Shown: one piece after another, positions 33,236-33,437 of the stretch | Layout of the letters: each line of letters begins with the position of its first letter | Position numbering within the stretch: position 1 is the stretch's first letter | Program-made: the position numbers and the translations under genes | The notes under the pieces: generated by a model | Told to the model about the DNA's origin: nothing | Seen by the model: only the letters and a program-made list of their open reading frames with translations | Database searches by the model: none | Assembly (NCBI RefSeq): GCF_963921235.1 | Contig: NC_086107.1 | Location: 107,262,001 to 107,326,000, forward strand | From: Mobula hypostoma | Lineage: Eukaryota | Direction of reading: 5' to 3' | Length of the DNA: 64,000 nt

Positions 33236-33437
33236 GGCAACACACATCAAAGTTGCTGGTGAACGCAGCAGGCCAGGCAGCATCTCTAGGAAGAGGTGCA
33301 GTCGACGTTTCGGGCCGAGACCCTTCGTCAGGACTAACTGAAGGAAGAGCTAGTAAGAGATTTGAAAGTGGGAGGGGGAGGGGGAGATCCAAAATGATGG
33401 GAGAAGACAGGAGAGGGAGGGATGGAGTCAAGAGCCA
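33236..33437 (-). mobile_element. Young PLE pLTR insertion with 13-bp TSD
   Basis: AGGTTTAATATCA at 33223-33235 and 33438-33450; inserted in a LINE 3' tail. Confidence 0.85.
33299..33336 (-). ncRNA. Minimal type I hammerhead ribozyme motif (PLE-associated)
   Basis: Minus strand UAGUC-CUGACGA-A-GGG(UCUCGG)CCC-GAAA-C-GUC/GACUG: stem I, catalytic CUGANGA and GAAA boxes, stem II, palindromic ACGU replacing stem III, and a GUC cleavage triplet. Confidence 0.8.

What the first reader, a model, noticed from the sequence alone, without database searches (positions are those of the whole stretch)
33299..33336. Intact minimal hammerhead ribozyme carried by a very abundant Penelope-derived short repeat (retrozyme-like system)
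Seen: the minus strand folds as a type I hammerhead with stem I UAGUC/GACUG, core CUGACGA, stem II GGG-UCUCGG-CCC, GAAA, and palindromic ACGU in place of stem III, giving a GUC cleavage site. Variants or remnants recur about 15 times in 64 kb (about 663, 3749, 7409, 10127, 10747, 11993, 12420, 13290, 29845, 32288, 41233, 48440, 54504, 58512/60023, 63956). Four of them sit directly 3' of PLE GIY-YIG coding sequence; the rest are short non-coding units of 100-350 bp. Established: Penelope-like elements carry minimal hammerheads that cleave as dimers, and non-autonomous hammerhead-bearing retroelements (retrozymes) exist. Inference: this genome holds a very high-copy, ribozyme-bearing, non-autonomous PLE derivative. 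It would put many potential self-cleaving sites into introns and intergenic transcripts.
Basis: partly seen in the sequence, partly recalled or inferred. Interest (0 to 1): 0.8.

Follow-up and report, generated by a model that had tools for sequence, protein, structure and literature searches.

The report
Hammerhead ribozyme in Penelope retrotransposon tail
The flagged 38 bases are an intact minimal hammerhead ribozyme motif, predicted but not shown to cut RNA, inside a 202-base broken-off end of a very abundant Penelope-like jumping gene of a cartilaginous fish; this kind of motif is already described, and the short copies here are likely truncated ends of that element rather than a separate retrozyme family.

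Summary
The motif is real. It is the only strict-descriptor hit in the window, against 0 in 200 shuffles. It sits in a 202-bp insertion (33236-33437) with an exact 13-bp target duplication. Its sequence continues, through a 94%-identical sibling, into the 3' UTR of an RT + zinc-linker + GIY-YIG Penelope-like element (Neptune type). Distant relatives carry the same core with different stems downstream of their endonuclease (12 of 40 loci; 0 of 40 on the opposite strand). The window holds 25 family pieces (about 20 insertions). They have staggered 5' ends, two shared 3' end classes about 40 nt apart, inverted partners and no tandem array. These are the published marks of 5'-truncated Penelope insertions, not of retrozymes. 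Only 1 of 14 pieces that span the core is fully intact, and minimal hammerheads need a partner copy, so widespread cutting of host RNA is unsupported. Verdict: new member of a known kind (Cervera and De la Pena 2014), notable only for copy number (roughly 10^5-10^6, estimated).

The parts
33299..33336 (-). Minimal type I hammerhead motif: stem I 5 bp, core CUGACGA + extra A, stem II 4 bp, GAAAC-GUC; predicted cut between 33304 and 33303
   Evidence: sequence; only strict-descriptor hit, 0 of 200 shuffles; covariation with related PLEs
33236..33437 (-). 202-bp 5'-truncated PLE insertion: 134 nt of 3' UTR and motif up to the cut site, 68 nt after it (short 3' end); inserted in another repeat (33438-33758 recurs at 42236-42542 and 45515-45847)
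   Evidence: paralogous host repeats lacking the insert, joint 33235-33459
33223..33235 (+). Target-site duplication, left copy (13 bp, exact)
33438..33450 (+). Target-site duplication, right copy (13 bp, exact)
10065..10421 (-). 357-bp sibling (94% identical over 202 bp), same 3' end at +68, an inverted ~22-nt tail stub at its 5' end, 13-bp duplication at 10052/10422; core mutated at 3 positions; nested inside the endonuclease sequence of an older copy
9994..10855 (+). Older PLE copy: endonuclease end (split by the sibling), 3' UTR, decayed motif at 10752
7370..7966 (-). PLE copy: GIY-YIG C-terminal part (7724-7966, in-frame stop), 3' UTR, decayed motif at 7441; 3' end interrupted
8003..8218 (+). 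Inverted upstream piece of the same ORF (zinc-linker region, residues 211-285 of P0001) abutting the 7370-7966 copy
29520..29985 (+). PLE copy: endonuclease end, 3' UTR, decayed motif at 29849, long tail
54011..54595 (+). PLE copy with 10-bp duplication (54001/54596), inverted tail at its 5' end, endonuclease end, 3' UTR, decayed motif at 54509
11898..12066 (.). Divergent inverted pair (long arm on -, short arm on +)
12348..12561 (.). Divergent inverted pair (short arm on -, long arm on +)
13187..13370 (.). Divergent inverted pair (long arm on -, short arm on +)
16028..16225 (.).
63722..64000 (.). Degenerate inverted pair (63722-63904) followed by a same-strand copy at 63955, 174 bp on, cut by the window end; possible partial tandem
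565..701 (-). Short solo copy, long tail, one core change
3742..3835 (+). Short solo copy, short end, three core changes
27995..28094 (+). Short solo remnant, long tail
32283..32411 (+). Short solo copy, long tail, two core changes
41136..41295 (-). Copy of another subfamily (different sequence upstream of stem I), long tail, decayed
   Evidence: (loose end at 33335)
47419..47473 (+). Weak remnant (E 0.0025)
48438..48523 (+). Short solo remnant, short end
58439..60060 (-). One copy split within the hammerhead core by a ~1.5-kb LINE piece (3' part 58439-58534, 5' part about 60023-60060)

Best explanation
The 38 bases are an intact minimal hammerhead motif within a 202-bp insertion with a 13-bp target duplication that matches the 3' end of a Neptune-type Penelope-like retrotransposon, and this and the other short units are likely 5'-truncated, dead-on-arrival copies of that element. 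Shown: the motif, the duplications, collinearity with the UTR behind the GIY-YIG frame, two shared 3' end classes (+52 to +74 and +86 to +112 nt after the cut site), and inverted partners with one long and one short arm. Inferred from the anole PAc work (PMC11167929): the element's protein nicks the target with a stagger, here 10-13 bp. It starts reverse transcription at either of two internal sites downstream of the hammerhead on an RNA that is continuous across the cut site (uncleaved, or cleaved and religated). It usually stops early, often with a second priming event that gives the inverted arm. Inferred: in full-length tandem transcripts two motifs would pair through the ACGU palindrome, probably with protein help, and cut after GUC to process the element RNA. 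Isolated genomic copies would lack a partner and decay; the focal one is intact because it is relatively young.
For: Endonuclease piece 7721-7954 is 82% and 77% identical to ray proteins P0001 and P0002. These carry RT motif YIDD, a C-x4-C-x2-C linker and GIY-YIG (linker diagnostic for Neptune/Nematis in PMC8557442). The C-terminal read-through of P0001 matches 10337-10399 in the sibling's UTR (18 of 21 residues), which ties the focal subfamily to a coding element. Exact 13-bp duplications flank the focal copy and its sibling; 4 of 300 random position pairs reach 13. Of 25 pieces, 12 end short, 10 end long and 3 cannot be judged; 4 of 4 assessable inverted pairs have one arm of each class. No tandem array of the family among 37 TRF rows. 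Genome-wide contigs continue upstream as endonuclease or UTR and downstream as the tail (loose ends at 29532, 33435, 33233, 29962). Related PLE loci carry the same core 94-663 nt behind the endonuclease on the sense strand in 12 of 40 loci with room, 0 of 40 on the antisense strand. In 11 aligned motifs 16 core columns are invariant and 8 of 9 pairs change on both sides.
Against: No full-length element lies in the window and no whole genome was held, so tandem arrays elsewhere are not excluded. One same-strand pair is only 174 bp apart (63786/63960, cut by the window end). About 14 of 25 pieces begin within about 40 nt upstream to 25 nt downstream of the cut site, a pile-up that pure random truncation may not explain. 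Only 3 of 18 candidate insertions show an exact duplication of 10 bp or more. The catalytic fold is not the predicted equilibrium fold: stem I probability is at most 0.07 in context, and the dimer scores -16.7 against -34.1 kcal/mol for an alternative duplex. The covariation set was picked by a descriptor that demands pairing, so the pair counts are biased upward. 28 of 40 related loci had no descriptor hit.
Confidence: 0.85

Rival explanations
1. The short units are a true non-autonomous retrozyme or SINE-like family: small hammerhead-delimited RNAs that are transcribed, cut, circularised and re-inserted by the Penelope protein.
For: About 16 of 20 insertions lack coding sequence. Many 5' ends fall near the hammerhead. 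One 174-bp same-strand spacing at the window end. A preprint found tandem non-LTR retrozymes in its one sampled chondrichthyan, mean consensus 363 bp, and derives retrozymes from pLTRs (10.64898/2026.07.22.740005).
Against: No tandem array. No circular permutation: the focal insert is collinear with the element's UTR and ends at a target duplication. 5' ends are staggered over about 600 nt. The motif is the minimal PLE type, whereas coral retrozymes carry canonical hammerheads (PMC7229834 passages).
Confidence: 0.1
2. The motif is a conserved RNA structure or protein-binding and priming landmark of the element, not an active ribozyme in vivo.
For: In anole PAc, hammerhead mutants did not change insertion in vitro, cleavage needed the protein, and no RNA-seq reads ended at the cut site (PMC11167929). 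Minimal motifs cleaved weakly even as dimers (PMC4209133). The catalytic fold is disfavoured here.
Against: The catalytic core is invariant across PLEs only 42-50% identical in protein while both stems change, which is what selection for catalysis predicts. PAc cleavage was lost in C3G and G8C and partly rescued in the double mutant.
Confidence: 0.2
3. Chance resemblance to a hammerhead within an ordinary repeat.
For: No Rfam match; folding z-score -0.38.
Against: 0 of 200 shuffles give a descriptor hit; the same core lies at the same place and strand in 12 of 40 related loci against 0 of 40 antisense.
Confidence: 0.01

Closest known systems
Minimal type I hammerheads (min-HHR) in the pseudo-LTRs of metazoan Penelope-like elements (Cervera and De la Pena 2014, PMC4209133; parts 1-2 of 4 read)
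   Same: No helix III, palindromic 15.2-16.2 positions, extra nucleotide between 9 and 10.1, G10.1-C11.1 pair, 4-5-bp helix I, mostly single dispersed motifs that the paper attributes to truncated PLEs, present in fishes.
   Different: Helix II is 4 bp (7-8 bp in the Schistosoma families). The family here numbers an estimated 10^5-10^6 pieces, mostly decayed, against about 4,000 and 9,000 descriptor hits reported for coelacanth and Xenopus; these counts are not like for like. Cartilaginous fishes are not named in the parts read.
Neptune-clade EN+ Penelope-like elements and their insertion anatomy (Craig et al. 2021, PMC8557442; 12 passages seen)
   Same: RT, CX2-5CxxC linker, C-terminal GIY-YIG; strong 5' truncation; inverted 5'-truncated partner; 30-40-bp tail at one end only.
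   Different: Clade assignment rests on the linker motif and host, with no tree against named Neptune elements. No microsatellite targeting is evident at the two youngest copies.
PAc (Poseidon of Anolis carolinensis), internal RT initiation at two sites (Frangieh et al. 2024, PMC11167929; parts 1-2 of 4 read)
   Same: Two 3' end classes downstream of the hammerhead separated by a tail; genomic copies run through the cut site.
   Different: Different clade (PAc lacks the zinc linker by the clade definition); ends here are at about +68 and +105-112; nothing was assayed here.
Non-LTR retrozymes of animals (Cervera and De la Pena 2020, PMC7229834, 12 passages; Li, Clavereau and Pollet 2026, 10.64898/2026.07.22.740005, parts 1-3 of 5)
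   Same: Short, non-coding, type I hammerhead-bearing, PLE-related sequence.
   Different: Retrozymes are defined as head-to-tail tandem repeats with a hammerhead in each unit, expressed as linear and circular monomers. No such array is in this window.

Membership tests
Minimal type I hammerhead of PLEs | Conserved core CUGANGA, GAAA, UH | tested here: met
Minimal type I hammerhead of PLEs | Helix I 4-5 bp, helix II with G10.1-C11.1, extra nucleotide between 9 and 10.1, no helix III, palindrome | tested here: met
   against PMC4209133
Minimal type I hammerhead of PLEs | Covariation of stems with invariant core among relatives | tested here: met
   11 motifs: 8 of 9 pairs change on both sides, 0-1 of 500 shuffles reach the observed values; set chosen by descriptor, so biased; strand and position test 12 of 40 vs 0 of 40
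Minimal type I hammerhead of PLEs | Located in the terminal repeat downstream of the endonuclease | tested here: met
   241-299 nt behind the endonuclease end in 4 copies; focal subfamily linked through P0001
Minimal type I hammerhead of PLEs | Self-cleavage as a dimer | not testable with these tools
   dimer structure can be drawn but is not the predicted minimum; needs an assay
Neptune-type EN+ PLE | PLE RT followed by C-terminal GIY-YIG | tested here: met
   closest full proteins P0001-P0004 (GIY-YIG E 5e-4 to 2e-3, just under Pfam's cut-off); the window holds only linker and endonuclease pieces
Neptune-type EN+ PLE | CX2-5CxxC linker | tested here: met
   P0001 and window 8003-8218; shared with Nematis
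Neptune-type EN+ PLE | Phylogenetic placement with named Neptune elements | not tested
   no named reference set was fetched
Neptune-type EN+ PLE | 5' truncation, inverted partner, one-sided 30-40-bp tail | tested here: met
Non-LTR retrozyme | Head-to-tail tandem units of 150-450 bp, each with a complete hammerhead | tested here: not met
   no array in 37 TRF rows; single strict hit; one 174-bp pair at the window end is unresolved; only 64 kb examined
Non-LTR retrozyme | Sequence independent of, or permuted relative to, the autonomous element | tested here: not met
   collinear with the PLE UTR
Non-LTR retrozyme | Unit-length linear and circular RNAs | not testable with these tools
   only assembled contigs were available
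Rfam Hammerhead_1 and other Rfam hammerhead models | Score at or above the gathering threshold | tested here: not met
   no hit at gathering or at E<=10

The most novel reading that the evidence does not exclude
This ray-like genome may hold the largest load of hammerhead motifs of any vertebrate. If even a few percent of 10^5-10^6 copies keep an intact core, long pre-mRNAs would often contain two same-strand intact motifs that pair through ACGU and cut host transcripts. That would leave a genome-wide footprint, with intact cores depleted on the sense strand of introns.
Probability: 0.08. Interest if true: 0.6.

Novelty: new member of a known kind. Interest (0 to 1): 0.2.

Why it matters
As it stands it adds a cartilaginous-fish family to a class described in 2014 and shows the PLE two-ended tail anatomy clearly. 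The very high copy number is its one asset. It offers the statistical power to ask whether PLE hammerheads cut in vivo (end mapping, orientation bias of intact cores in introns) and where reverse transcription starts and stops, questions that PMC8557442 and PMC11167929 leave open.

Tried and rejected
Rfam scans: no hammerhead family at either threshold. Whole genome: none held, so no genome-wide count, consensus or intron test was possible. Pattern scans for the motif in metagenome and viral contigs: 0 matches each. Sequencing runs: no RNA holder listed. The two runs guessed as RNA were contigs only and cannot show ends, strand, level or circles; no place with many molecule ends was listed; not used for or against expression. 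Summed depth (10.8 million at the focal bin against 14-21 in four unique bins) is not a copy number by the tool's own warning and is used only as an order of magnitude. A contig of organism B crosses the focal junction by 29 letters, under the 31 required, so shared presence is only suggested. Core-versus-flank conservation among window copies: not informative, since the copies decay at CpG sites and core columns are no better kept than stem columns (14 pieces; 12443 and 12451 may be out of register). I first read 10160-/10752+ as an inverted pair and rejected that when the 13-bp duplication showed nesting. Three copies share an A6C core change (7441, 10752, 54509), possibly a subfamily trait; not resolved. 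Monomer and dimer folding do not favour the catalytic form. A paper on PLE hammerheads cleaving as dimers (Lunse et al. 2017, recalled) is not held; its title phrase occurs in 10 held papers (search listing only). Literature searches for a description of this family in rays or sharks (listings, plus passages of the manta genome preprint, where 'PLE' and 'ribozyme' do not occur, and of PMC6155905) found none. Supplements of PMC4209133 were not opened and those of the two preprints are closed; they, and repeat databases, may list it.

Full report
Observation. The minus strand of 33299-33336 reads UAGUC CUGACGA A GGGU CUCG GCCC GAAAC GUC / GACUG. Every conserved hammerhead core base is present, stem I has five pairs, stem II four, and helix III is reduced to the palindrome ACGU. 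A strict structural descriptor finds this one site on both strands of the 64 kb and none in 200 of 200 shuffles. Rfam has no matching model at gathering or E<=10, and the folding energy is ordinary (z -0.38).

The family in the window. A profile built from 11 copies finds 25 pieces at E<0.01 and none in the reversed window. By my grouping they make about 20 insertions. Of 14 pieces that span the core, 2 keep all 11 scored core bases. One of these (63960) has lost the 15.2-16.2 pair, so 1 of 14 is intact. Changes concentrate at CpG positions, as expected for decaying insertions.

What carries the motif. Four copies have a 241-299-nt pyrimidine-rich UTR and then the end of an endonuclease frame upstream. 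The best-kept piece is 82% identical to P0001 (Mobula hypostoma annotation) and 77% to P0002 (Hypanus sabinus), so the host is likely a ray (inference). These proteins have an RT with YIDD, a C-x4-C-x2-C linker and a GIY-YIG domain (Pfam E 5e-4 to 2e-3, just under the curated cut-off). The linker marks the Neptune and Nematis clades (PMC8557442). Relatives occur in sharks and skates and, at up to about 51% identity, in marine invertebrates (315 proteins found, best 120 listed). The focal copy has no coding sequence, but it is 94% identical over 202 bp to the copy at 10065-10421, whose UTR matches the read-through C-terminus of P0001 at 18 of 21 residues. The focal subfamily is therefore the 3' end of an RT-endonuclease element.

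Insertion anatomy. The focal insert spans 33236-33437 between exact 13-bp duplications; the sibling has an exact 13-bp duplication too and the same 3' end, 68 nt after the predicted cut. A third copy has a 10-bp duplication; the other 15 of 18 candidates show none of 9 bp or more, and 4 of 300 random position pairs reach 13 bp. Among 25 pieces, 12 end at +52 to +74, 10 at +86 to +112 and 3 cannot be judged (my reading of the local alignments). Five pairs are divergent inverted arms; in the 4 that can be judged, one arm is long and one short. Two duplication-flanked copies begin with an inverted stub of the long tail. 5' ends range from +23 to beyond -570, with about 14 of 25 between about -40 and +25. 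These features are the published marks of Penelope insertions: strong 5' truncation, an inverted partner and a one-sided 30-40-bp tail (PMC8557442). The tail is explained by two internal reverse-transcription starts on unprocessed RNA (PMC11167929). Tandem Repeats Finder reports no array of this family in 37 rows. The only short same-strand spacing that could be a tandem is 174 bp, at the window end.

Genome-wide view. No assembly was held. Contigs of four runs laid on 29400-34000 continue upstream of 29532 as endonuclease sequence, upstream of 33435 as the sibling's UTR, upstream of 33335 as a second UTR type, and downstream as the tail, whose consensus fades after about +110. Summed depth is 10.8 million at the focal bin, 1.8 million at an endonuclease position and 14-21 in four unique bins. 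The tool warns that this is no copy number. Taken as an order of magnitude it agrees with 20 insertions per 64 kb scaled to batoid genomes of 2.2-4.0 Gb, which gives about 0.7-1.3 million. The roughly 1:6 depth ratio resembles the 4 of 20 insertions that reach the endonuclease, though the two templates differ in age.

Is it a ribozyme motif? An alignment of 18 proteins fetched 80 related loci from metagenome contigs (best 80 of 372). Of the 46 I scored as reaching the endonuclease end, 40 had at least 400 nt downstream. In 12 of 40 a hammerhead descriptor hit lies 94-663 nt downstream on the sense strand, in 0 of 40 on the antisense strand. I aligned the focal motif with 10 of the 22 hits, choosing non-duplicate sense-strand ones of similar length. 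Sixteen columns are invariant, including the extra A and ACGU that the descriptor did not require, and 8 of 9 pairs change on both sides. The pair counts are inflated by descriptor selection; the strand and position test is not. Cleavage itself is untested. The catalytic fold is not favoured in prediction (stem I probability at most 0.07 in context; dimer -16.7 against -34.1 kcal/mol). This is in line with the weak dimer-only activity of Schistosoma minimal motifs and the protein-assisted cleavage of anole PAc.

Mechanism. Shown: motif, duplications, collinearity, two end classes, inverted arms. Inferred: the element's protein makes a staggered nick, primes at one or both internal sites downstream of the hammerhead on RNA that is continuous across the cut site, and usually terminates early. 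The hammerhead would act only in tandem full-length transcripts, as a dimer, to process element RNA. An uncleaved tandem transcript and a religated full-length circle give the same genomic product and cannot be told apart here.

Against the retrozyme reading. Non-LTR retrozymes are defined as tandem units, each with a complete hammerhead. That test is not met in this window, and the units are not permuted relative to the coding element. It remains possible elsewhere in the genome, since a preprint found such arrays in its one sampled chondrichthyan. The pile-up of 5' ends near the motif is the one feature that random truncation may not explain; part of it may be a detection effect, as subfamily UTRs diverge just upstream of stem I.

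Novelty. The kind was described in 2014, including the remark that most motifs are single and probably belong to truncated PLEs. My six literature searches did not show this ray family by name; unopened or closed supplements and repeat databases may hold it. Earlier notes of this scan on the same genome reach the same reading many times over (81 fit the look-up, 8 shown); they are unchecked and not independent support. Verdict: observation confirmed, interpretation partly supported, new member of a known kind, interest 0.2.

Noticed in passing
window 7370-8218: The PLE ORF is split into a minus-strand 3' part (from residue 288 of P0001) and an adjacent plus-strand inverted part (residues 211-285), the layout expected from twin priming.
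   Followed up: partly
window 7441, 10752, 54509: Three endonuclease-linked copies share the same core change (A6 to C, CUGCCGA), perhaps a subfamily variant rather than independent decay.
   Followed up: no
window 9994-10855: A young PLE copy has inserted, with a 13-bp duplication, into the endonuclease sequence of an older copy of the same superfamily.
   Followed up: yes
window 58533-60020: A LINE piece ending in (ATAGTC)n sits inside the hammerhead core of one copy; the same young LINE end recurs at 13651 and 41404 (92-94% identical).
   Followed up: partly
window 3436-3597, 35227-35520, 44891-45152: Further PLE linker, endonuclease or UTR fragments without an attached hammerhead; the last is much more diverged.
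   Followed up: no
window 31422-31520 and 54748-54814: Long near-perfect hairpins (below-threshold miRNA-model hits); the first region is high-copy, probably MITE-like repeats.
   Followed up: no
window 61615-62981 and 63000-63300: A 50-bp minisatellite (about 27 copies) that creates long spurious ORFs, followed by a GC- and CpG-richer stretch that may be a promoter or first exon.
   Followed up: no
window 8462-10075: A non-LTR retrotransposon fragment (RVT_1 plus zf-RVT), unrelated to the PLE.
   Followed up: no
L009 948 and 4014; L055 856 and 4280: Related PLE loci with identical hammerheads on both sides of the ORF about 3.1 and 3.4 kb apart, i.e. complete pLTR-ORF-pLTR units; L003 has an inverted upstream partner.
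   Followed up: no
P0003, P0009, P0111: PLE RT-endonuclease sequence is annotated as isoforms of host genes (divergent protein kinase domain 1C, chitinase domain-containing 1, nicotinamide riboside kinase 1) in ray and skate records, probably annotation artefacts or exonised copies.
   Followed up: no
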